A stretch of 63,691 bases of DNA, the filler included, from Folioceros fuciformis (Eukaryota): NCBI GenBank assembly GCA_049999805.1. It is 4 parts of 2 records of this genome, joined end to end, with 100 filler letters (N's around TTAATTAATTAA, not from the genome) between each part and the next. Parts side by side here need not be neighbours in the genome. Positions count along the whole stretch, not along the records: positions 1 to 22,253 come from JBNGIO010006317.1; 3 more parts are not named here. The stretch is one strand, 5' to 3'. Below, piece by piece: positions 1,801 through 63,691 of the stretch. The translations under genes were made by a program, and so were the position numbers. The notes beneath the pieces were generated by a model, which worked only from the letters and a program-made list of their open reading frames with translations, was not told where the DNA came from and searched no databases. Within the stretch, counting starts at the first letter, position 1. The number at the start of each line of letters is the position of its first letter.

Positions 1801-3206
1801 TTTGGCAAGAGTCTTCCTGGGACAAGAATTGCTTTATCATCGATTGCCAAGAATCTTTTTAACTACTTGTCGATTGAGGACATAGCCAGCCAGGAGAGAA
1901 GTGAAGATGACTTTTGGAGAACTCCTGGGCCTAGCTAGTTCTAGCTGTGTGTCATGAGATAGCCTCACCATTGAGTACTCACTAGCCTAAAGCAAGAAAA
2001 AATAAGAAGGTGAATACAAAACATGGTTTACCATTGATAAGATGCCTGTTAGAGCTTGTGGAGGAGACCCTTCATTGGGATACTAGAGTACTAGAGATAG
2101 GTCTTGAACACCACAAAGTGCAAACTAAGGGATGACAAAGGCTAGGGGATAACGAAGGGGTTGAGAGGTTTAACAAAGTGACTAATGGAGTCTATTGGCA
2201 TTTGCGAGGTTTGATGATAGAAAAGTTGTTAATTTGTTCTTGGAAGTACCAGCTCACAAAGTTAGCCCCCCATTTATGATGCACTAGACTACAAAGTAGT
2301 TAGCTCATCACTTTTTTTATCCTATTCTTAACCTCACTAGACTCTATCTCTTGATACTTCTCATGAAGCTTAGGAGATTAGGATCAACAAGTTTACTACC
2401 AACTTTTTATGAATTCCCATGTATAGGCTCACGACTATACTATGATTAGATGCTCCTCTAGTTTCGAAATAATCCCCATTGATTTTTATGGTCTTTAATA
2501 TTCTGCCATTGATTTCTATTGTCCTTAACCTTAGGTATTGCAAGAAAGGAAGTATGACATGATGCATGGATCCAACATGGTTTTACATGATTATGGTGTA
2601 TTATTGATTATAGAAATATTATTATCATTAAATAATAATGTTGCTATAATCAATTGTTGACTTAGGTCATGTTTCAATTCAAGGTAGATGGAAGAGCTAA
2701 CTACGTTAAAAGGGTTTAGGGAAATGGAAGAGCTAAATTCGTGGAAGATATTTCTGGCTAGTTGTAAATATGCATACAAGAGTAAAAGCCAGGCTGGTTA
2801 CTAGAATATCTGGTGGAGGGGCAAATTTGATTAGTACTCGGGAACAGCGAGTCTGTTTTCCAAGTCTCGAGATTCGCAGCTCGGTGTGTACACAACACAC
2901 GAGCTGCACACCTTGAGACTCACGTGCACCGATCTGCTGCAAATGGAGGCTCGACACATTGATGAGGTTGTTGGTCGTCTACATGGCGATGGGGTCTTCT
3001 CAAGTATGCTCAAGAATCAGACTGAAGACTTCTGGATTCTTGCTCCTCGGAATTCTGCTCTGGCAGATGCATCCGGCAACGAGTCCCGACGTGCGAAGCT
3101 GTGATTGTGAGCTTGAGGCGCTATATAATGCCCGTACACGCTTGCATTCCGCAGATCCTGCCAGGTTCGCTGCAACCTAGAGAGCAGAGGAGCTCAAACC
3201 TCAGCA

Positions 3207-4814
3207 ATGGCAGTTTCCGAAGCCCTAGGTCCGCTCTCGCGATCGGCTCTGCTCCTGGCGACATTGGTGATATTCGGCCTGGCCGGGGCAGCATTCGCAT
3301 CGCATGGATCCGACGCCGCCGCGTGGTTGCAGCTCGATTCATTGAGCGTGTCCGACCCGCTTCCGGTGGTGGATCTTGATGCCGTGAGTGTGCTCCCTCG
3401 GGTGGATGTCGACGCCGTGAGCGTGCTCCCGAAGGTGGATGTCGATTCCGTGGGTTTGTTCCCCAAGGTGCCTCTTCATACCGTGAGTGTGCTCCCGCAG
3501 GTGGATGCGGAGGTCGCCAGCACCGGGCTCCCGCAAGTCGACTCGTCTGTACCGTCTGAGTTGTGGTGGGGCACGGACGCCGCCAATCGCATGGTGTTCC
3601 AGAGTCTGCCCTTCTGCAAAGGCCGCGTCTGGGTCGTGGTGAATCCGACCGTGAAGGGGAATTCCAAGAAGGCCGTCTGCCCGGCTGCAGCTGTGGAGAC
3701 CAGGACGTCGTGTGGTACCTACACTACCTGCACTTTCATTTCCCAATCGGAACACGGCAGGCACGGGAAGGGCCTCTTGGAGCATGATGAGGTCGAGGTG
3801 TACTCATGGAGTAGCATGCGCCGTCACCATCCCGGCCACAAGGGGCGTCACGGGCCTGCTCCCGCACCGCATCACCATCACCATAACAATCATCATCATC
3901 ATCACTACGCCCCGGCTGCCACTCCGCTTCATCACCACAAGGCCCCGGCTCCATCGCCTGCTCACCACCACAAGGCCCCGGCTCCATCGCCTGCTCACCA
4001 CCACAAGGCCCCGGCTCCATCGCCTGCTCACCACCACAAGGCCCCGGCTCCATCNNNNNNNNNNNNNNNNNNNNNNNNNNNNNNNNNNNNNNNNNNNNNN
4101 NNNNNNNNNNNNNNNNNNNNNNNNNNNNNNNNNNNNNNNNNNNNNNNNNNNNNNGCCCCGGCTCCATCGCCTGCTCACCACCACAAGGCCCCGGCTCCAT
4201 CACCTGCTCACCACCACAAGGCCCCGGCTCCATCGCCTGCTCACCACCACAAGGCGCCGGCCCCATCGCCTTCTCACCACAAGGCGCCGGCTCCATCTCC
4301 TGCTCACCATCACCACCATCACAACGCTCCATCTCCTTCGTATCGCATCCGACACAACAAGGGACTGTCGGAGGAAGTGTCGAGCGAGGAAGTAGTGTCG
4401 AAGCAGGAAGTGTCCGGCGTGGAAGACGTGTCGAGCGGGAAACTGTTGGGCGAGGAAGTGTGGCCGCACAATTTCCATCACGGGCATGGGCAGCCGGGGA
4501 AGCCAAGTCCTCATCACGCTCCAGTTGGAGCTCCAGGGCACCGCCATGCCCCGCCCGCCAAGACCTGCAAGACAAAGTGGAACGTGAAGGGCAACGAGAT
4601 CGAGCTGTCGGAGTACGCCAAGGATGTCGAGGTCAAGGAGCCTTGGGGCCACACCGGAGTGGGGTGGGATGACACTTGCAAGTGGCTTCCCAGTCACAAC
4701 GGCACTCAGGTTCTGGTGTGCGTGAAGTGCGCAGCAGAGACCCCGGGCCACAAACCGGGTGTTGCCGAGACCACTGAGAGCGGGGACGAGCCTGTCGAGT
4801 ATCCTCTAGACTAG
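3207..4814 (+). CDS. Secreted His/Pro-rich repeat protein (AGP/HRGP-like chimera with two Cys-containing domains)
   Basis: Single-exon ORF with an N-terminal hydrophobic signal peptide, 11-aa VDVDAVSVLPK-type repeats, a 4-Cys segment, APAPSPAHHHK tandem repeats (interrupted by the gap at 4055-4154) and a C-terminal 4-Cys segment. TATA-like ctatataat at ~3121. Confidence 0.8.
   Translation: MAVSEALGPLSRSALLLATLVIFGLAGAAFASHGSDAAAWLQLDSLSVSDPLPVVDLDAVSVLPRVDVDAVSVLPKVDVDSVGLFPKVPLHTVSVLPQVDAEVASTGLPQVDSSVPSELWWGTDAANRMVFQSLPFCKGRVWVVVNPTVKGNSKKAVCPAAAVETRTSCGTYTTCTFISQSEHGRHGKGLLEHDEVEVYSWSSMRRHHPGHKGRHGPAPAPHHHHHNNHHHHHYAPAATPLHHHKAPAPSPAHHHKAPAPSPAHHHKAPAPSPAHHHKAPAPXXXXXXXXXXXXXXXXXXXXXXXXXXXXXXXXXXAPAPSPAHHHKAPAPSPAHHHKAPAPSPAHHHKAPAPSPSHHKAPAPSPAHHHHHHNAPSPSYRIRHNKGLSEEVSSEEVVSKQEVSGVEDVSSGKLLGEEVWPHNFHHGHGQPGKPSPHHAPVGAPGHRHAPPAKTCKTKWNVKGNEIELSEYAKDVEVKEPWGHTGVGWDDTCKWLPSHNGTQVLVCVKCAAETPGHKPGVAETTESGDEPVEYPLD
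3932..4330 (+). repeat. 33-bp coding minisatellite (APAPSPAHHHK)n
   Basis: Unit aaggccccggctccatcgcctgctcaccaccac is repeated on both sides of an assembly gap. Confidence 0.9.
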
Positions 4815-5534: not shown

Positions 5535-7572
5535 ATGGCGCTGATTCAGAAATGCAGCATATGGACGCTGCTTGTTGTTCTTGTCTTCTCTACTGCAGCT
5601 AAGGCAACAACAACAGATAACGTGATTACGCAGTGGAATGCTGTCGCCCAGCAGGTTAGTGCTTCAAACAGAGTGGTTTTAAAGCAGTCAATGTTAACGC
5701 TGTAGTAGCTGGGCGATCTGCTGTGGCCACTGCTTCGGGCCCGGGCAACATTTCTTGGACTGACCATATTTCTCTTGCTCTTGTGCTGAAGGTGGTACGC
5801 CGGCTCGGGATTGCCAATCAAATTGCTGGCAAAAACTACGCCCTGGTTCATTTGTCACAGTACAAGGCACTCCAGCTAGCGTACAAGGAAAAGGTGAAAC
5901 ATCCTGAGGCAGCAGCTGCCTATGCTGCTCATTTCGTTCTCTCGGAGTAAGATTTCACTGGCCATCGCTACTTCATTTGTCCTGACAGTCGTCACATTGG
6001 CAAGCTTTTGACCGAGTGCTCAAGCGTGAAATATTGCTCGTTGTAAACTTCCTGCAGGCTCGCTCCCTTTTTGCAGTCATCCCTTCTGGATCGTGCCTTG
6101 GCCAAGCAAATCCGTCCTCTCCAGCTTTCCGAGGAGGAGGAGTCTGCCCTTCAGACAATTGCTCTGGCTTTTGCCGTGCCCCTCGTGAAAGAGAGGTAAT
6201 TCCCACTTTCAAACCTTCCGCGGTGGTGTTTGCCTGTTGAAAAGCCTGCTGCTACGTTGAGTTCTCAACGAGTGCTTGGACACTCCAGGGCGTACGACGG
6301 AAGTCAGAGATGGGCAGACTTCGTACCTGTTCCTCCAGGCGGCCCAACTGGAGCTTACCAGTTCGTTCCCAACCAAACCTATGCCCTCTATCCCCAGCTG
6401 GCAACCACCAAGCCGTTCCTGATTAAGTCTCCCAAGCTGTACGACCACTTCGGCGGCCCCCCCAAGATTCCAAGCGCACTGTACAATGCCCAATACAACA
6501 CTATCGTCAAATTAGGAGACACCGACTCCCCACACCAGACACAGGCTGAGAGGGATACAGCGAGATTCTGGGACGATGGAAGCAGTAAGGAATGAAAACC
6601 CATGCATATCCCTCCTTGCTTGCGATTGTGAACATTGCTTGCAAAGATTCTCTGCTTCCTGGCCCTCAGCTAAGTTCTGCATAAACGTGGTGTAACCCGT
6701 AGTTTGAATTGGATTTTGGCATGCAGATACCTCGTCTGTTGCAGGGCATCTGTTCAACGTGACTCTTGCAGCAGTTGACACTGACCTTTCGCTAAACGAG
6801 GTTGCCAAGCTCTTCGCAGCCTATGCTGTGGCGACGTACGATGCATCCATTGCTACCTTTTATCAGAAATACAAGTACCTCTTCTGGAGGCCCATTACTG
6901 CTGTGAGGTAATCCTCTTGAACATCTTCCACCAGTTTTTTACTTCTTTCTGGGCCACTGCAACGAAGACACCATTTACGAGTGTAGATGTGGTAGCCATG
7001 GTTTATCCGGATTGAAACTTGGCAGGCAGGGAGATCCAAGGCACAAGCCCGCAGGATTCTCACCTGTGCTAGTGGGCTCTGGATACACACCGGAGTATCC
7101 GAGTGGACACAGTACATTCGGTGGAGCATACGCTGGAGTGCTGTCCAAGTTTCTCGGCAAATCCCCGAGCAGCAAAACGAGGAAGCCTTTCTCTGTAGCC
7201 ACTGAGAACGTATTGCTCCCTCCCCGTACTTTCAACACCATTGAAGGACCTGCGCTGGACATTGTGAGAAGCAGGTACACTGCGAAGCTTCCCCTACTGT
7301 CCCATCCGACGCCATCATGATGGCAGTCTAAGCTTGAGCTCACTCACGTATGTACTTTGCAGAGTGTACGGAGGACTGCATTTTCCGAAATCCAGTGACG
7401 ATGCGTACCACATCGGTGTAGAGGTGGGAGTCCCTGCCAGAAGCAAGTTACAACTGGACGCCACGAGTCCTGATTGTCTGCTTCCAAGCTTGTCTGACAC
7501 GCATCCCTTCTTCCTATGCAGGTTGGCAGCTATGTGTGGGACCATTTCCCCAAGGTCTTCGGTGAGCTGTGA
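5535..7572 (+). CDS. Secreted vanadium-dependent haloperoxidase-like protein (PAP2 superfamily), 8 exons, ~416 aa
   Basis: GT-AG exons 5535-5654, 5792-5946, 6058-6195, 6289-6584, 6727-6907, 7026-7274, 7363-7423 and 7522-7572 splice in frame. Signal peptide present; motifs KYKYLFWRP (Kx6RP), EYPSGHS, SRVYGGLHF; N-terminal DNVITQWN and central ARFW segments resemble bacterial VHPO-like proteins. Confidence 0.85.
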
Positions 7573-8137: not shown

Positions 8138-10912
8138 ATGCACGAACTTTGCTTCTGCACTGGGTTGCCACCTGCAATTCGGTGGAACGCTGCTGGAGTA
8201 TACGTAGTGGACTGTTCTAGTCCGGGTGTTTGTAGAGAAAATGGGCATGCGATGGGCAGAGGAGCTATGGCTTCTTCAGATTTAGGCGCAGACGAGGGAA
8301 CCAGAAAGGTACAGCCGGCAGTTGTTGTGGAAAGAATCTGGCAGAAATTCTTTTCTGATCCCTCGCAGTGGTGGGACAACAGGCTAAGCAAGGTGCGACC
8401 GTGCCTCAGCTGCTACACAATGCGTGCTCTTTCGCTCGTCCCATTTTTTCTACGTTGTTGAGACCCCAATCGGTAGTTGTTGGTGCAGAATGGCCCTAGA
8501 AGTCCCGACTTTACACATAAGGTGTCCAAGGAGGTTCTCTGGGTGGATGGCAGGTACAAGCCTTCTTGGGTGGATTCTCAGCTGGCTACACTGGGCAATC
8601 ACAGTAGGCCTCCTGCTCGGTGAGTAGGATTTGATCGTGGGTCTGATTAATTCATGCTTTATGGATGCAAATTTCCGCTTTCCTGAGCAAACAAGCACTG
8701 AGTTGTTCGCAGGGTGCAGGGTGAATGGAAGGATGAGCATGGGTTGCAAAATCTCTGTAGGGATGGGCAGCTAGGCTTGGCATTGGATGCTATGCACCAG
8801 ATGGGCCGGGACGGCAGAGTTCCTTCCGTGGAAACTTATTTTCAACTCATGCGGGCATGCAGGAAAAACAAATCGCTGACTGAGGTCAAGCAAGTGCATG
8901 CTGACATGGTGAAGAACGGGATGGATAGCCACAAGTTTCTGGCAGAGCATCTTGTAAACACTCTGGTTCAGTGTAGCAGTCTTGTGGATGGCCTGCAGGT
9001 GTTCCGTAAGTTGTCACAGCAAGACGGTGCGCATCCAAACAGCTTCACTTTCGTCAACCTACTCAAAGCATGCAGCAGTTCACCAGACCTGGAACAATTA
9101 AGGTGGATTCATGGCGAAATCCTAAGACATAGATATGGATCTGATACGTATGTTGGGAGCACACTCGTTCATCTTTATGCTAAGTGTGGGAGCATGGTGG
9201 ATGCCCACGATGTTTTCCGGACACTGCCCAAGTGCAGCGTGGTGTTGTGGAATGCATTGATTGCAGGATATGCTCAAAAGGGTCAACCAAGCAAAGCTCT
9301 GGAGCTTTATGGCCAAATGCGGAAGGAAGGTGTGAAGCCAAGCCATCGGACATTTGTCAGCGTGCTGCAAGCATGTGCTATCTTGGGAGAACTGGAATCA
9401 GAGACACTCTTGGATGGGATGTCGACCAAACTGCAGTCCCTGGACAGAGGGATGGCAATTCATGCTGACGCAGCTCGAAGTGGGTATGGGTCAGATGTGT
9501 TTGTTGGCAATACCTTGGTCAGTATGTATGCAAAATGTGGCAGCATTGAAAGTGCCTTACATATTTTTAATTCTTTACCTGAGCGTGGTCTTGTGTCATG
9601 GAATGCAATGATATCAGGATTCACTCAGCATCGGCAGGACGAAAAAGCTTTGCATTTTTTTGCTCAAATGCAAGAAGACGGGATGAGGCCAGACGTTTGG
9701 ACATTTGCCACGGTTCTTAAAGCATGTACCAACCTGGCAGATATGGAGGCTAGTGTACTTGTTGGCTCTGGCAAGTTTGTCAAAGTGAAATCTCTGGAGA
9801 AGGGGAAGGCAATTCATGCTCAGGCAATTCAAAATGGTTATGCATCTGACGGTTTTGTTGGCAGTGCTTTGGTTAGTATGTATGCGAAGTGTGGCAGTAT
9901 CGACGAAGCGATGGAGATATTTGACACTTCGCTCAAATGCGATGTGGTGTCTTGGAATGCCATGCTTGGGGGTTATGTTGAACAAGAACAAGGAGAGAAA
10001 GCAATACAGCTTTATGCTAAAATGCAGGAGCATGGTGTCTATCCCAATGAAGCATCATTTGTGTGGGTGCTGAAGGCGTGCAGCAATATAGGAGCCCTCA
10101 CTATGTGCAGTCGGGTCCACCAACATGTAGACTCTGCTGGCTATGCCTGCAGTCTTAAAGTGTTAACAGCTCTCATTCACGCATATGGAAAATGTGGCAG
10201 CATGACCAATGCCCAGACAGTGTTCGACGAACTACCACGGGCCGACGTCGTGGCATGGACTGCATTAATTGCCGGGTACGCACGTCAAGGAGATTTTGAA
10301 TCCACCGTTCTGTGCTTTGAGCAAATGGAAAGGGCAGGCTTTAAGGCGACCGGTGTGACGTTCCTATCGCTTCTCTCAGCATGCAGCCACGCTGGTAAGG
10401 TTGAGCAAGGTCTCAAGTACTTCGATTCCATGACGAAGGACTGTGGCATCAGCCCTGCCACCGAGCATTACGTCTGCATGATTGACCTACTTGGCCGGGC
10501 AGGACTGTTCAGCAAGGTCGAAGACTTGCTTTTGGAAATGCCAATGCAACCCACTTGGGCTGTTTGGTCGGCATTGTTGGCTGCCTGTCGGAAGCATGGG
10601 AACGTTGTACTGGGAAGGCAAGCTTTTGACTGCCTGATGCTTTTAGAACCGAACCAGGCTTCACAGTATGTGGTAATGTCTCAGATCTATGTTGATGCTG
10701 GCATGTGGTCCAGCGCTGAAGGGATAGAGAGCTTACGGTGGGGGGCAGGTGCAACATTGAAAAAACCAGCTTACAGCTGGATTGAGCATGAGAAAGGGTT
10801 GAACACGTTCATGGCAGGCGACTGTACACACCAGCAAACCGAGGAGGTCTACAAAATGCTGGAAACAATTAATGGGCAGTTGTTGAAAGAAGGAGAGATT
10901 ATTCATGGTTAG
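8138..10912 (+). CDS. PLS-class PPR protein (E1-E2-E+, no DYW) with N-terminal OSB-type PDF ssDNA-binding motif, ~861 aa
   Basis: Exons 8138-8392, 8489-8619 and 8713-10912 join in frame (phases 0 and 2). The first two encode IWQKFFSDPSQWWDNRLSK|NGPRSPDFTHKVSKEVLWVDGRYKPSWVDSQL; exon 3 encodes P-L-S arrays, E domains and KKPAYSWIE...F.AGD..H. Start codon uncertain. Confidence 0.88.
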
Positions 10913-29806: not shown

Positions 29807-30677
29807 ATGGGTGCCAGAAGCAAATATTACGGCGTTGTGCAGAGGGCTTGGGGTCTTCTGTCGTCCTCCCTATCCGAGAGTTTGGTGACGAAACCTTCGC
29901 AGGGCACTGCCCGAGCTGCGAATCAGGTATGGGATTTGTTGACACGAGGTGGAGGTGGAGGTGGAGGTGGAGGTGGAGGTGGAGGTGGAGGTGGAGTGGA
30001 GCATGGCTGGGGAGCTTGCTGACATGTCTGTGTTGGAATTCTTGCAGGGGTTTGTGTGCTGCGCTCGCCTGTTCCACGGGGATAGGGTTAGTTCCGCTCT
30101 CGAGACTGTGACACTTGGGGGCGTGCAAGAGAGTGCTCTGGCGGAGTCGGAGGCTGCTGAGAGTCCGGGGTATAGTTTTAGGGATGAAAAGCTTGTAGGG
30201 CGCAGGGGCACTTACAATCGGTCAGACAGTTTGAGTTACTTGCACGCCAGGCAGAGGCAGGTGGTGAGGAAGCTGGTCAATATCTGCATGACAGATGGGA
30301 AGAAGGCTACCTCTCGGGGAATCATCTACAAGACCTTGACCAATCTGGCCCAGCATGGTGATGTGGTGTCCATCTTGGACAGGGCTTTGGAAAATGTGAA
30401 ACCTGTGTGTGAGGTGAAGAAGGTGAGGAAGGCTGGCACCACTCAGCTGGTGCCCTGCGTTATTGCAAGGAACCGGCAGGAGACGTTAGCTATGCGGTGG
30501 ATACTTGATGCTGCTGTGAAACAGCAAGGTGCCAAGAAAAATCTGAGCTTAGATCAGTGTCTGTCAGCCGAGATTTTAGAGGCTTCTCAGAAGTCAGGCG
30601 GTGCAAGGAAGAAACGAGATGAGCTTCACAAACTTGCTGAAGCTAATCGGGGCTCCGCCCATTTTAGGTGGTGGTAA
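29807..30677 (+). CDS. RPS7: Nuclear-encoded, mitochondrial-type ribosomal protein S7 with acquired presequence exon
   Basis: Exon 1 (29807-29926, MGARSKYYGVVQRAWGLLSSS...) splices in phase 0 to exon 2 (30048-30677), which encodes KLVNICMTDGKK...ENVKPVCEVKKVR...LAMRWI...LHKLAEANR..HFRWW. Confidence 0.9.
29947..29999. repeat. (GGAGGT)n microsatellite in the RPS7 intron
   Basis: About 8 hexamer copies; explains the spurious poly-VE/WR/G ORF starts. Confidence 0.9.
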
Positions 30678-40713: not shown

Positions 40714-43700
40714 TCAAACGACTGGCCGCATATTTGTCATGCTCCAAAAAACCATGATGATACCAAGGAGGGCTTCCGCTTGTCCGAACGTCCCTCCTCC
40801 CCTTTGCGATGGGTAGGGGATGGCAGTCTCCTTGCCTACCTTCAGCTTAGTGACTTCTACGAGGCAAAGGTTCTGCTCGTCTAACCTCCGGCTTCTCCAG
40901 ATGCCGTCGAGCTCGTCAATGGTACCGATCCCGAGTTCCTTTCCACTATCATCCAGTAAGATAACCTGTTGCCCTTTGACGTAGTGAGGCAACGCCAAGG
41001 GGACGGGGGACAGCTCGTGGACTTCCGGCGCTTGGGCCACTGGCAGAACCGCCAGAGGCTCTTCAATCCCGCTGTATTGCCCCCCTGTGGTTGAGCTTGA
41101 GACTGGTGCTGGCCCTATGCTGCCGCTCCCGCTGTCGTGAAGGGCGCCTGGCATCTCTGTGTCAGCAGTCACGAAAGGTGCCTCGCCGGGCTGAGTAGGT
41201 CTTGTGGTGGGAGACCCTACAGCGCCGCCCCTTGCTAGTCGTGCAAGCCTCTGCTTTCGGTTGTTCAACCTGTAGCCGATGAGCAGCATTAGATGCAAGT
41301 ACGCTGGAAGCAAGTGTTTGAACATAGCGCCCCGATGACAAAGGATGACACGGTTCTAGACTAGCCAAGAACCACAATTCTGGACTCTGCAGCCACAGCT
41401 CACCAGTTCTTCAGTTGATTCTCTGTGATCTCTGGACCCTGCGGTGGACGACAACCAGCACAAAAGGTTTAGGTTTCCTCCTGCTTCCCATCAGCATGGA
41501 GAGGGAGTCTCAAAATCATGGAAGTGCAGAACCTAGCATGCTTAGAACCCCAGGCACTTACATTCTGATTGAGCAACACAGTCCACTGTCGGATCATTGC
41601 TGGTTTCCTTTGCATGTCCGGCTCTGTCGTCAGCTGGCTTTCTAGCATAGCGATCTGCTCGTCATTCATGATATTCCGTTTCCGTTTCGTCTTATCCTTT
41701 GACCGACCTTCCTTTGTTCCTCTTGATCTACTCCCTGTCAATCCGTCACCGGCTTGATTGTACGGGTACTGCTGGTCACTGAAGGCTGGCTCTGCTTTCT
41801 GCCACCCGCTACTGAAAGTCCTGTCTGGTGCTGCCTGTTCATCTTCGTTTTCAGCCTTCCTCTCGTCGTCGTCACTGCTATTGTTCACAACCTTTATTTT
41901 CCGCAGTGTCTTTGAGCTTGGCACCTCAACCGGTCTGCTTCCCTGCACAGTGTACCAGAGACCTGGCTCAACACTAGAAGCACTACTGAACAATCGAGAA
42001 GTGATCACTGGGACCATGTTGTGTCCAGTGTTTAGCAACCGCTTCCTTACCTCTAATTTGGAAGAGTTACCATGTACTGGCTTGTGTTTACCAGCATCAT
42101 CAACACGCATGTTCCTGGCCTCGCTGATAAGCTGGTGTACTGCGTCATCCATGCCAGGAATTTCATCCTGTCTACTGGGTTCACTGTCCTGCTTATGAGG
42201 CCCGGTGTCATCGAGGTCCTCGTGATCAACCTGTTGAGTGTCTTGTGCTTGAGCATCTGAAGCTTGTCCAGGCCCAGGGACATGTCCGTCCTTCAAAGCC
42301 TGTTCATCATTTATAGCTTGCACCCCGTTACTTACTCCGTCCATTCTAGTATCCTGATCTTCATCAACTAAAGCTCGTGCCTCAGTCATTTCCGTATCAG
42401 GCGTCTTCCCCTCCAGTTGACAGAGCTGAGCAGCACCAAGTTGTAAACGCTTCCATCTCTCCAGCTTTTGACGACGATCAAGCAGTGCACCCAACTTTTG
42501 CTCATGCGCTTCTCTTACATAGCTAATCACTGGTGGTTCCTGTTCAGTTTACAACAACAGATCGCCCTGTTCAGTTCAAGGGGCATCAAGGTGTTCAACA
42601 AATGTCGTTCTCCAAGATGCTTGAGAGTATGCTATTAAACACTGCGCATTCTTAGAAAGGAAATCAAGCTCCAGAGGCATTAGGAGTAATACCAGAGCCT
42701 CATCCACATGTGGCGATGGGCATATTGCTGAGTGCAATGCAGCTGAAAACTCGCTGCAGAACATTCACATGTTATGCTCAGAGTGTGTTGAACCCGTTTG
42801 CCAGAGACAATTACTAGAAAAATACCTCACAAGCAGAAGATCCTCATCATTTACATCATCCGATCCCAACGACACCACATAGTGAATGAGCTTATCTGCG
42901 ACAAGTAACGTGTTAGTCCCATTGACTGTCATTCCTGCAAAAACAACGTCTTCACAGTCAAGCATACAAGGAATGAGCAGGTCGACCACCAGGAACTTAC
43001 GAAGGTTTTCACAAATTCGCACAGCGGTCTGTTCAACTGTGAGAAAGAAGAGGGCATCCTCTGGACATAAGGGGCCCAGTACTAAGTGCTCCAACAAAAA
43101 GTGCAGAAACCGATCTTTCTGGTCAGCTGTACAGCAAGAATGTTGAATCAGGGGCAAGCCATGAATATCACACAAAACGGGGCTCATCACCAGAGGCAAT
43201 ACCGTGAACTGCAAAAGCCAGCCCTTACCACTGCACATTTCGGGGTTGAAGCAGAAAAGGTTAGCAAAAAGCTTAACCAACAGTGAGGATCGCTGTTGCG
43301 TATTGTGGTCTGGTACAGCACTTTCCAAATATATTGCACAGCCAGAATTGTAGTCTTGCAAGGGAACCCCGGACTTGACTCCCAAGCCACCTTTCTGAAC
43401 TAGCATGGCAGCGCCAGCAGCATGAAACGTATTGTATCTCAATACCGCATCCCTCTCTGCAACCGCTGCATGAGCACCGTCTGGTCCCCCACACCACCGA
43501 TCCTGAAAATCAAGTGGCGCAGCTGCTAGAACCATAGCCAAGTGTCGAGTCTGATATCAGAGGAGAGCAGCACACAAAATGAGTCAGATGTGAAACTTTC
43601 AGTTTCCATACTACAAACTTAGGGAGCTCCCATTGTAACTTATGCAAGTATCAATGAGGATCCTGCCTTTCAAGTCACCTACAGAAAACATAAAACTGGT

Positions 43701-62106: not shown

Positions 62107-63691
62107 CGAGACAGTCAAAGCATATAAACTTATTGACCCTGTTTCTCGACAACTAGTACTTGCCAGAAGTGTTACCTTTTTGGAATCCCTTTAGGCTGCT
62201 CCTATTCGAGATGAAGCACTTGATCCTTTTGAACAGCCTGAAGATTCAGATGTCCTTGATTATGAGCTTCCCGGTGTCATTTCTCTGTACCCCATGGATG
62301 TGGACGGCGCGGCCCCTAATTCTGCTGCAGGTAATCCTGGACAGGTCCTTGCTCAGTCACCACAAAATCCAGGACCAGCTCCTGCCCAGCTTCACAACCC
62401 TGGCCAGATCCTTGCCCAACCACAACCAGTTGCTGCTGGTCCCCATTATGATCCTGATCATACAGAACAGGATCCTGAGCATGGTAACCCAGATTTTGAT
62501 TTTTCTGCGGAAGATGGGGAAGATGACTTACCTCCTCCTCAGCTATCTGTAGATGTTGCCCCTGCTCCAGTTGACTCTGATGAGGCTGCTGGACCTCGAC
62601 GTTCATCAAGGCATAAGCCTCCACCTTCTGAATGGCAGGAACCCCCTTATGCAAGCATTGACTTCAGATGCCCTACTATTTCATCAGTTTCCTCCCCTCC
62701 TGAAGTCCCTCCAGAACCAGTATCTCTTACGGAGGCACTTACTGGACTAGATAAAGACAAGTGGAAATTCGCTGTTGATGACGAATATAATAGCCTAATC
62801 AAAAATGGCACATGGCGTCTGGTTCCTAGGCCTGCAAACAGGAAAGCCATTACCTGCAAATGGGTCTTTAAACACAAGCTCAATGCAGAGGGGCATATTG
62901 CCCGATATAAAGCTAGGTTATGTGCACGAGGATTTACCCAAGTCGCTGGTTTGGATTACCAGGAGACGTTTTCTCCAGTTGTGCGTGCTCAAAGTATTCG
63001 CATCATCTTAGCCCTTGCTGCACAATATGACCTTGAATTACAGCAGATGGACGTCTGCACGGCCTTCCTCCATGGTCTTCTTGAAGAAGAACTATATATG
63101 GAGCAGCCAGAGGGGTATGTAGACCCCGCACATCCTGACCACGTCTGCCAGTTAATCAAATGCCTGCATGGACTTAAACAAAGTGCAGAACGATGGTATA
63201 AAAGATGTGATACTGCCCTGAAGTCTCTTGGCTTCACACAGTGCAAAGCTGATTCAAATGTTTATATGTTTCGAGACGGATCTGCCTATGTTCTTCTTGC
63301 ACTCTACGTGGATGATGTCATCCTTGCAGCCAGTAACCCTGCCATCCTATCACATGTGAAGACACTCTTAAGAAATACCTTTGACATGACGGACAGTGGG
63401 GACCTTCTCTTCTATCTCGGGATTCAAGTCCTGAGGGTTAGATCAGAAGGGCTGCTCATCATTCATCAATATAAGTACATAGCAGAAATTCTACATCGCT
63501 TCAACATGGGCCAGGCCCATCTAGCCACTACTCCTGGTGCTGTAGGCACAAAACTTACCAGACATGAGTCTCCTGTGACAGATGCTGATCAACAGGACAT
63601 GGCTGATGTGCCTTATCGCCAGGCTGTTGGTAGCTTAATTTTCATCAGTAATTGGACCCGGCCTGATGTTCAACACTCTGTTAGCACAGTT
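62107..63691 (+). mobile_element. Ty1/copia retrotransposon pol fragment (post-integrase region and reverse transcriptase)
   Basis: KAYKLIDP, then a TAG at 62192-62194, then an open frame to the window end with NGTWRLV, CKWVFK, YKARLCARGFTQ..G.DY.ETFSPV, QMDVCTAFLHG, LHGLKQ, LYVDD and YRQAVGSL. Confidence 0.95.

What the first reader, a model, noticed from the sequence alone, without database searches (positions are those of the whole stretch)
5535..7572. Intron-rich, secreted, bacterial-style vanadium haloperoxidase-like gene in a land plant
Seen: 8 exons assemble into ~416 aa with a signal peptide, no further obvious TM helices, and all three vanadate/phosphate-binding motifs (Kx6RP, PSGH, SRx5H). 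Established: vanadium haloperoxidases are characterised from bacteria, fungi, and red and brown algae, while typical land-plant PAP2 members are membrane lipid-phosphate phosphatases. Inference: an anciently acquired (HGT) or patchily retained enzyme, now fully intronised, possibly making HOCl/HOBr or halogenated metabolites in the apoplast or mucilage. It could instead be an acid phosphatase.
Basis: partly seen in the sequence, partly recalled or inferred. Interest (0 to 1): 0.8.

Follow-up and report, generated by a model that had tools for sequence, protein, structure and literature searches.

The report
Secreted vanadium haloperoxidase-like enzyme in hornwort
This is a real, spliced hornwort gene for a secreted enzyme built like the vanadium enzymes that seaweeds, fungi and bacteria use to oxidise halides; it belongs to an old, apparently unstudied family shared by green algae, mosses, liverworts and a clubmoss, and its chemistry (halide oxidation or phosphate release) is untested.

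Summary
The gene is real. Eight exons (5535-7572, +) give 416 aa with an N-terminal hydrophobic leader and all three vanadate/phosphate motifs; one RNA-type contig bridges all 7 GT-AG introns. The host looks like a hornwort (PLS-E PPRs, spliced LCIB, single-frame neochrome) and has four copies. A fold model of a 56%-identical orthologue is a two-helix-bundle vanadium haloperoxidase (VHPO), closest to Zobellia iodoperoxidase (Z 41; acid phosphatases about 14); the phosphatase-type HxxxD aspartate is absent. It is not a hornwort novelty: orthologues occur in Physcomitrium, Sphagnum, Ceratodon, Marchantia, Riccia, the lycophyte Diphasiastrum, Klebsormidium and many chlorophytes, forming one clade apart from sampled bacteria (SH-aLRT 100); no named fern or seed-plant member was found. 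Best reading: an anciently acquired, vertically inherited, patchily lost green-plant VHPO subfamily, probably an apoplastic halide (Br/I more likely than Cl) peroxidase (about 0.5); a secreted phosphatase is the main rival (0.3). No activity is shown. Databases auto-label some algal members, but ten library searches found no paper on the clade. Model-plant orthologues make it directly testable.

The parts
5535..5654 (+). exon 1 (start codon, hydrophobic leader residues about 1-24, start of helix bundle 1)
5535..5606 (+). inferred signal peptide (cleavage after Ala24 inferred from hydropathy and small-residue pattern)
   Evidence: 30 of 33 aligned green sequences have a similar N-terminal hydrophobic stretch
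5792..5946 (+). exon 2 (N-terminal helix bundle)
6058..6195 (+). exon 3 (N-terminal helix bundle)
6289..6584 (+). exon 4 (loop-rich linker; Asp234 at 6575-6577 aligns with Asp292 of the Curvularia chloroperoxidase)
6727..6907 (+). exon 5, holds motif 1
6867..6893 (+). motif 1, Lys284-x6-Arg291-Pro292 (oxyanion binding)
   Evidence: Lys and Arg kept in 33 of 33 green sequences
7026..7274 (+). exon 6, holds motif 2 and the start of motif 3
7078..7089 (+). residues 315-318 (Ser-Gly-Tyr-Thr), a diverged loop before motif 2; the family has Thr-Pro-x-His here (His in 27 of 33)
7099..7110 (+). motif 2, Pro322-Ser-Gly-His325
7363..7423 (+). exon 7; His386 (7379-7381) is the predicted vanadate/phosphate-ligating histidine; residue +4 is Ser, not Asp
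7522..7572 (+). exon 8 with stop codon

Best explanation
A secreted, N-glycosylatable, two-helix-bundle enzyme of the bacterial/fungal-type vanadium haloperoxidase family, member of a green-plant clade that predates or dates to early Viridiplantae, was inherited vertically, kept in bryophytes and a lycophyte, lost or not found in seed plants, and expanded to four copies in this hornwort. Shown: gene, splicing, fold class, motif residues, distribution. Inferred mechanism: the protein enters the secretory pathway; in the wall or surface film His386 binds vanadate held by Lys284, Arg291, Ser323, Gly324, His325 and Arg380; apoplastic H2O2 forms a peroxo-vanadate that oxidises iodide or bromide (chloride weakly, if at all) to freely diffusing hypohalous acid, giving antimicrobial surface chemistry, peroxide removal or halogenation/cross-linking of wall phenolics. 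The window copy has drifted at two second-shell positions (Phe281 for Trp; Thr318 for His), so its halide or substrate preference may differ from its paralogues.
For: Profile of the green family vs PDB: Zobellia vanadium iodoperoxidase 4cit E 1.7e-45, other VHPOs 1e-24 to 1e-5, membrane and class A acid phosphatases E 0.002 or worse. AlphaFold model of orthologue P0002 (56% identical; pLDDT 90.6): Foldseek TM 0.73/0.76 to 4usz; VIA-align Z 41.3, rmsd 3.0 over 372 residues to 4usz, 32.6 to NapH3, 32.0 to Curvularia VCPO, versus 13.7-14.2 for acid phosphatases. Two bundles mark V-HPOs, one bundle marks acid phosphatases (PMC4859513, passages). Motif 2 has His as in 4cit and 1idu, not the Phe of non-halogenating NapH3. 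The PAP2 motif ends HxxxD (PMC8506161, part 1); 0 of 33 green sequences have that Asp, and neither do 4cit, 9ptr, 9l8x. Purifying selection versus paralogue C1380: dN 0.22, dS 1.33. Green rows are one side of a branch with support 1.0 (147 rows) and SH-aLRT 100 (75 rows); exon-sized fragments from mosses and Marchantia start or stop at window intron positions 2-7.
Against: No activity, vanadium binding or localisation was tested. VHPOs and acid phosphatases share the same primary site (10.64898/2026.10.16.759729, passages), and close non-halogenating homologues exist (NapH3, MarH2; PMC13519999), so fold and motifs do not fix the reaction. Solved two-bundle proteins were chosen for study as haloperoxidases; thousands of relatives (4359 clusters at E<=0.001) are untested. 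Brown algae reduce their haloperoxidase families in fresh water (10.1101/2024.02.19.579948), whereas this family persists in freshwater and terrestrial plants. Gly of motif 2 is Thr or Leu in 13 of 33 green sequences. The Curvularia enzyme does have the +4 Asp, so its absence is not a VHPO hallmark in general. The fold was made from an unnamed orthologue, not the window protein. No characterised VHPO was in the trees; a tree with the algal rows on their own side was not rejected (p-AU 0.20).
Confidence: 0.5

Rival explanations
1. Same ancestry and fold, but the working enzyme is a secreted, metal-free acid phosphatase that forms a phospho-His386 intermediate and frees phosphate from organic esters in the wall or soil film; vanadate would act as an inhibitor or give only trace haloperoxidase activity.
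For: Identical primary site in the two enzyme classes; a solved apo-chloroperoxidase structure is titled as trapping a phosphate intermediate (3bb0); a scavenging role fits retention in freshwater and soil algae and rootless plants (inference); some Mucilaginibacter homologues sit beside polyphosphate kinase 2 (3 of 3 such neighbours scanned, one genus).
Against: Fold far closer to VHPOs than to any solved phosphatase; HxxxD Asp absent in 33 of 33; no P1BS motif in 2 kb upstream of any of the 4 copies, though about 0.4 per 2 kb is expected by chance so this is weak.
Confidence: 0.3
2. A VHPO-fold enzyme with another reaction: vanadate-dependent peroxide removal or sulfoxidation, a sulfur-related hydrolase, or a substrate-specific rearrangement as in NapH3; the diverged window copy could be such a specialised paralogue.
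For: NapH3 is the second-best fold match. A separate cyanobacterial subfamily lies beside sulfonate-uptake-type genes in 5 of 9 loci scanned. The window copy alone lacks the Pro at 316 and has Thr at 318; the C6073 copies have Glu there.
Against: All first-shell residues of halide-oxidising members are intact, including the His that NapH3 has lost; the cyanobacterial subfamily is rejected as sister of the green clade (p-AU 0.004).
Confidence: 0.15
3. Origin rival: the land-plant gene was taken from bacteria separately from the algal genes (including a hornwort-only transfer from a cyanobiont), or came from the plastid ancestor.
For: Top-scoring non-green rows include cyanobacterial proteins (P0072 Synechococcus; P0223 Nostoc); nesting of land plants inside the algal rows is not statistically forced (p-AU 0.20).
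Against: Identity falls smoothly from lycophyte 57% and bryophytes 52-55% to Klebsormidium 40% and chlorophytes 29-41%, bacteria about 33% or less over full length; green rows form one side with full support; grouping with either sampled cyanobacterial set is rejected (p-AU 0.004 and 0.016); intron positions are shared with mosses and a liverwort, which excludes a hornwort-only transfer.
Confidence: 0.05

Closest known systems
Zobellia galactanivorans vanadium iodoperoxidase (PDB 4cit/4usz), bacterial-type VHPO
   Same: Two-bundle fold over nearly the whole mature chain (Z 41.3, TM about 0.75); same Lys/Arg, Ser-Gly-His, Arg/His site; no Asp at His+4.
   Different: Only about 19% identity in the structural alignment; plant protein has a eukaryotic leader, 3 N-glycosylation sequons and 7 introns; Phe281 and Thr318 stand where 4cit has Trp and Phe; activity unknown.
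Curvularia inaequalis vanadium chloroperoxidase (1idq/1vnc) and Streptomyces NapH1/NapH3
   Same: Same fold class (Z about 32); Asp-Gly-Ser-Asn segment matching Curvularia Asp292 is present in the window copy.
   Different: Plant protein is about 190 residues shorter than the fungal enzyme; lacks its His+4 Asp; has His where NapH3 has Phe and 9l8x/9ptr have Ser, so it is not of the selective meroterpenoid type.
Class A non-specific acid phosphatases (PhoN/PhoC) and membrane PAP2/LPP lipid phosphatases
   Same: Share the three active-site motifs and the C-terminal bundle (Pfam PF01569 hit).
   Different: Single bundle or multi-pass membrane proteins; Z 9-14 and TM about 0.3; motif ends HxxxD; the window protein is soluble after its leader.
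Brown and red algal bromoperoxidases (1qi9, 1qhb, 8vgx)
   Same: Algal, extracellular halogen chemistry; same site.
   Different: One-bundle dimer-type chains; only the C-terminal part aligns (Z 14-16). The green clade is unrelated to them beyond the superfamily.
Unstudied green orthologues: Physcomitrium XP_024360198, Marchantia Mp2g09150, Klebsormidium KFL_000220060, Coccomyxa XP_005645038, Micractinium PSC69336
   Same: Same clade, 34-54% identical to the window model.
   Different: Labelled only automatically ('uncharacterized', 'hypothetical', or 'acid phosphatase/Vanadium-dependent haloperoxidase'). Not to be confused with the DUF212 'haloperoxidase-related' genes of Arabidopsis (PMC2947710).

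Membership tests
Vanadium haloperoxidase, bacterial/fungal two-bundle type | N-terminal plus C-terminal helix bundles in one chain | tested here: met
   Model of orthologue P0002 aligns over 372 residues to 4usz and 390 to 1idq; Pfam VCPO_2nd above cut-off in 8 of 9 named or unnamed green full-length proteins scanned (Marchantia 26.4 vs cut-off 27). Proxy protein, not the window protein.
Vanadium haloperoxidase, bacterial/fungal two-bundle type | Vanadate ligands Lys, Arg, Ser-Gly-His, Arg and axial His | tested here: met
   K284, R291, S323, G324, H325, R380, H386 align to the 4cit and 1idu ligands.
Vanadium haloperoxidase, bacterial/fungal two-bundle type | Second-shell residues near the halide site (Trp before motif 1; Phe or His before motif 2) | tested here: inconclusive
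   Family keeps Trp (27 of 33) and His (27 of 33); the window copy has Phe281 and Thr318. Effect unknown.
Vanadium haloperoxidase, bacterial/fungal two-bundle type | Binds vanadate and oxidises halide with H2O2 | not testable with these tools
   Needs enzyme assay.
Selective meroterpenoid VCPO (NapH1 type) or NapH3-type non-halogenase | Ser (NapH1 type) or Phe (NapH3) in place of the motif-2 His | tested here: not met
   Window has His325; 8cxl shows Phe, 9l8x and 9ptr show Ser; NapH1 Ser427 criterion from PMC13519999.
Class A acid phosphatase / PAP2 phosphatase | Three-part motif KxxxxxxRP, PSGH, SRxxxxxHxxxD | tested here: not met
   First two parts and SRxxxxxH present; terminal Asp absent in the window (Ser390) and in 33 of 33 green sequences.
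Class A acid phosphatase / PAP2 phosphatase | Single helix bundle of about 230 aa, or several membrane-spanning helices | tested here: not met
   416 aa, two bundles, no hydrophobic window above 1.05 after the leader.
Class A acid phosphatase / PAP2 phosphatase | Phosphomonoesterase activity | not testable with these tools
   Needs enzyme assay; failing the membership rows does not exclude that it works as a phosphatase.

The most novel reading that the evidence does not exclude
Bryophytes, a lycophyte and many green algae carry a genuine secreted vanadium haloperoxidase inherited from the ancestor of green plants: a vanadium-dependent enzyme native to land plants, lost on the way to seed plants, which could be the missing gene for halogenation chemistry in liverworts and peat mosses and a plant source of terrestrial organohalogens; the hornwort's four copies have diversified at the halide-site residue (His, Glu, Thr).
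Probability: 0.45. Interest if true: 0.8.

Novelty: new variant of a known kind. Interest (0 to 1): 0.57.

Why it matters
Characterised VHPOs come from seaweeds, fungi and bacteria; none was found described from land plants in the papers searched. If this clade oxidises halides, land plants have their own vanadium enzyme, and two questions become testable by single-gene knock-outs in Physcomitrium and Marchantia: which enzyme halogenates bryophyte metabolites (a chloroperoxidase activity in the liverwort Bazzania is recalled, not seen here) and whether mosses contribute directly to soil and peat organohalogen pools, whose biological rationale is called unknown in PMC7854439 (passages). If it is a phosphatase instead, it is the first case of a two-bundle VHPO fold used that way and warns against annotating thousands of bacterial relatives as halogenases.

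Tried and rejected
Single exons find little: Pfam gave one sub-threshold PAP2 hit in 7 exons, NCBIfam none in 4 pieces, the word-index search with exon 6 none. Hornwort-only or cyanobiont-derived transfer: rejected. Membrane LPP: rejected by hydropathy and fold. Contamination or mis-assembly: rejected. Runs X2 and X3 (other organisms, same study) laid nothing, which shows no absence; no holder is on record as RNA, so expression level and tissue are unknown. P1BS scan: 0 of 4 promoters, uninformative. Marchantia phosphate-starvation table (PMC7672586 Table S4) lists an old-style gene id that I had only guessed might equal Mp2g09150 (values 1.99, -1.18, -2.02); the mapping is unverified, so it is not used. 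Bacterial neighbourhoods (53 of the neighbours listed or read from it) show no halogenase-type cluster and come from pattern-biased, non-sister homologues. The Chlorella ChPAP paper (PMC8506161) was read only in part 1 of 4; its protein was not compared. Literature: 10 searches found no paper describing a green-plant VHPO clade; most subscription papers are not held, the Zobellia enzyme paper and the Bazzania report could not be fetched, and unseen supplements may list these genes (Table S8 of 10.1101/2024.02.19.579948; Table S1B of PMC9667741, which names a 'haloperoxidase' among plant HGT entries; one scanned file of PMC11906373). Earlier findings of this scan: none returned.

Full report
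Observation. A 2204-nt contig from run X1, RNA by guess only, skips exactly those 7 introns and no differing letters are listed, so the model and its odd residues are not assembly errors; contigs say nothing on level or tissue. The three motifs occur once each: Lys284/Arg291, Pro322-Ser-Gly-His325, Arg380/His386. Hydropathy shows one N-terminal hydrophobic stretch and nothing membrane-like after it; there are 3 N-glycosylation sequons. Secretion is therefore inferred, not predicted by a dedicated tool.

Host. Neighbours are PLS-type PPR genes with E motifs, a GRAS factor and a ZIP transporter. The genome (87 Mb) also holds a spliced LCIB gene and a 1260-aa single open frame with GAF, PHY, two PAS/LOV and kinase domains, i.e. 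a neochrome. LCIB is reported in hornworts and absent from other sequenced land plants (PMC8075897, passages); neochrome in hornworts and ferns is recalled. The host is most likely a hornwort. GC3 of the gene (0.57) lies within the range of six neighbours (0.50-0.79).

Paralogues. Searches of G000 give four loci. C1380 has the same 7 introns and is 70% identical; two copies 62 kb apart on C6073 are 98% identical to each other, 53-54% to the window protein, and lack intron 5. One C6073 copy has an 11-nt deletion in exon 1 and reads only from a later ATG. Window versus C1380: dN 0.22, dS 1.33, i.e. purifying selection.

Relatives. A profile of exons 5-6 found 4359 clusters at E<=0.001. The best are green plants: Physcomitrium, Sphagnum, Ceratodon, Riccia, Marchantia, the lycophyte Diphasiastrum, Klebsormidium, and chlorophytes (Coccomyxa, Chlorella, Micractinium, Myrmecia, Elliptochloris, Botryococcus, Scenedesmus, Monoraphidium, Raphidocelis, Haematococcus). 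Identity to the window model is 57% (Diphasiastrum), 52-55% (mosses, liverworts), 40% (Klebsormidium), 29-41% (chlorophytes); full-length bacterial matches are about 33% or less. Exon-sized ORFs from moss and Marchantia DNA begin or end at window intron positions 2, 3, 4, 5, 6 and 7 (residues 92, 138, 236, 297, 380, 401), so the gene was intronised before bryophytes diverged.

Trees. FastTree on 147 rows (5 near-duplicate or mis-modelled rows dropped) puts the 33 chosen green rows plus 4 others, one later named Elliptochloris, in a clade with support 1.0 and a stem of 0.45. IQ-TREE on 75 rows (29 green; 8 green rows left out as near-copies or aberrant; 46 others chosen by score or name) gives SH-aLRT 100 for green and 100 for 12 land-plant rows. 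Joining green with either sampled cyanobacterial set is rejected (p-AU 0.004, 0.016). A tree with the 17 algal rows as one side is not rejected (p-AU 0.20), so nesting of land plants within algae is not forced. The trees are unrooted, hold no characterised VHPO and resolve no donor. The simplest history is one ancient gain, vertical descent and repeated loss.

Fold and site. The green profile hits Zobellia iodoperoxidase 4cit at 1.7e-45, other VHPOs next, phosphatases at 0.002 or worse. The spliced window protein could not be folded, so orthologue P0002 (56% identical) was used: pLDDT 90.6; Foldseek TM 0.73/0.76 to 4usz; VIA-align Z 41.3 to 4usz, 32.6 to NapH3, 32.0 to Curvularia VCPO, 15.6 to Ascophyllum bromoperoxidase, 13.7-14.2 to class A acid phosphatases. 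Two bundles versus one separates V-HPOs from those phosphatases (PMC4859513, passages). Across 33 green sequences Lys and first Arg are kept in 33, Ser in 32, both His in 32, second Arg in 32; Gly is Thr or Leu in 13. The Asp ending the PAP2 motif (PMC8506161, part 1 of 4) is absent in all 33, as in 4cit, 9ptr and 9l8x but unlike Curvularia. The window copy keeps the segment matching Curvularia Asp292 and has His where non-halogenating NapH3 has Phe. It is unusual in two second-shell places: Phe281 (Trp in 27 of 33) and Ser-Gly-Tyr-Thr at 315-318 (His at 318 in 27 of 33; Glu in the C6073 copies).

Mechanism. Most likely (about 0.5): secretion, vanadate bound to His386, peroxo-vanadate formed from apoplastic H2O2, oxidation of iodide or bromide to diffusible hypohalous acid for surface defence, peroxide removal or phenolic halogenation. 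All chemical steps are inferred from the family. The main rival (0.3) is a secreted phosphatase using the same site: the two classes share the primary sphere (10.64898/2026.10.16.759729, passages), brown algae shrink their haloperoxidase families in fresh water (10.1101/2024.02.19.579948, passages) while this family thrives there, and the solved members were picked as halogenases. Another reaction (0.15) is possible given NapH3 and MarH2 (PMC13519999, passages). A P1BS scan and bacterial neighbourhoods did not decide it.

Novelty. The family is known, V-haloperoxidases are stated to occur in green macroalgae (PMC8873139, passage), and databases auto-label the Coccomyxa and Micractinium proteins. 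A phylogeny of 105 vHPOs names bacterial, fungal, rotifer, red-algal and macroalgal/cyanobacterial branches in the passages seen (PMC10427571). Ten searches and passages of PMC11765636, PMC4421812, PMC9667741 and PMC2947710 showed no description of a green-plant clade; supplements of PMC8075897 and PMC11906373 had no hit. Subscription papers and several supplements were not visible, so prior notice in HGT tables or reviews cannot be excluded. I file it as a new variant of a known kind: an uncharacterised, secreted Viridiplantae subfamily of two-bundle VHPOs.

Verdict. Observation confirmed; interpretation partly supported. Less exotic than a lone bacterial gene in one plant, but more useful: single orthologues in Physcomitrium and Marchantia make the question of a land-plant vanadium enzyme directly testable. 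Interest 0.57; 0.8 if halide oxidation is shown.

Noticed in passing
window 8248-8392, 8489-8620 and 8702-10909 (+): Two small exons carry a WWDNR...PDF-x-HK motif (recalled as the PDF motif of organellar single-strand-DNA-binding proteins) just upstream of a PLS-E PPR frame, suggesting a PDF-PPR fusion; the 8393-8488 intron is bridged, and the same RNA-type contig runs from the VHPO-like gene into these exons (overlap or read-through; a contig does not prove one transcript).
   Followed up: partly
window 3129-4811 (+): Upstream gene with a leader, His/Pro-rich repeats across an assembly gap and a Cys-containing C-terminus; looks like a wall hydroxyproline-rich glycoprotein; no Pfam hit for two pieces; its 3' part is covered by an X1 contig.
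   Followed up: no
L006:2573-4421 and L007:2621-4462 (G000 C6073): Recent 4.8-kb duplication (96% DNA identity) of a paralogue lacking intron 5; one copy has an 11-nt deletion in exon 1 and a Leu-to-Pro change in a helix, possibly decaying.
   Followed up: partly
L019, L028, L029, L032, L033; L041: A cyanobacterial VHPO-like subfamily sits beside NMT1-type binding proteins, luciferase-like monooxygenases and ABC genes (sulfonate-uptake type, name recalled) in 5 of 9 loci; an actinobacterial copy lies beside a class V aminotransferase and an SrpI-like encapsulin. Hints at a sulfur-starvation role for part of the superfamily.
   Followed up: no
L051:1-3783 (G000 C1350) and L014 (G000 C1919): Single-frame neochrome and a spliced LCIB gene, used only as lineage markers.
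   Followed up: partly
window 29943-30674 (+): Nuclear ribosomal protein S7 frame with an N-terminal extension and upstream simple repeat; may be an organelle gene moved to the nucleus.
   Followed up: no
window 41472-43556 (-); 62195-63691 (+): Nodulin-homeobox (NDX)-like gene pieces, and a Copia-type reverse transcriptase frame at the window end.
   Followed up: no
P0072 and other rows: Many bacterial relatives are VHPO-like domains inside very large proteins (up to 5030 aa; P0072 is a Synechococcus CARDB/RHS protein).
   Followed up: no
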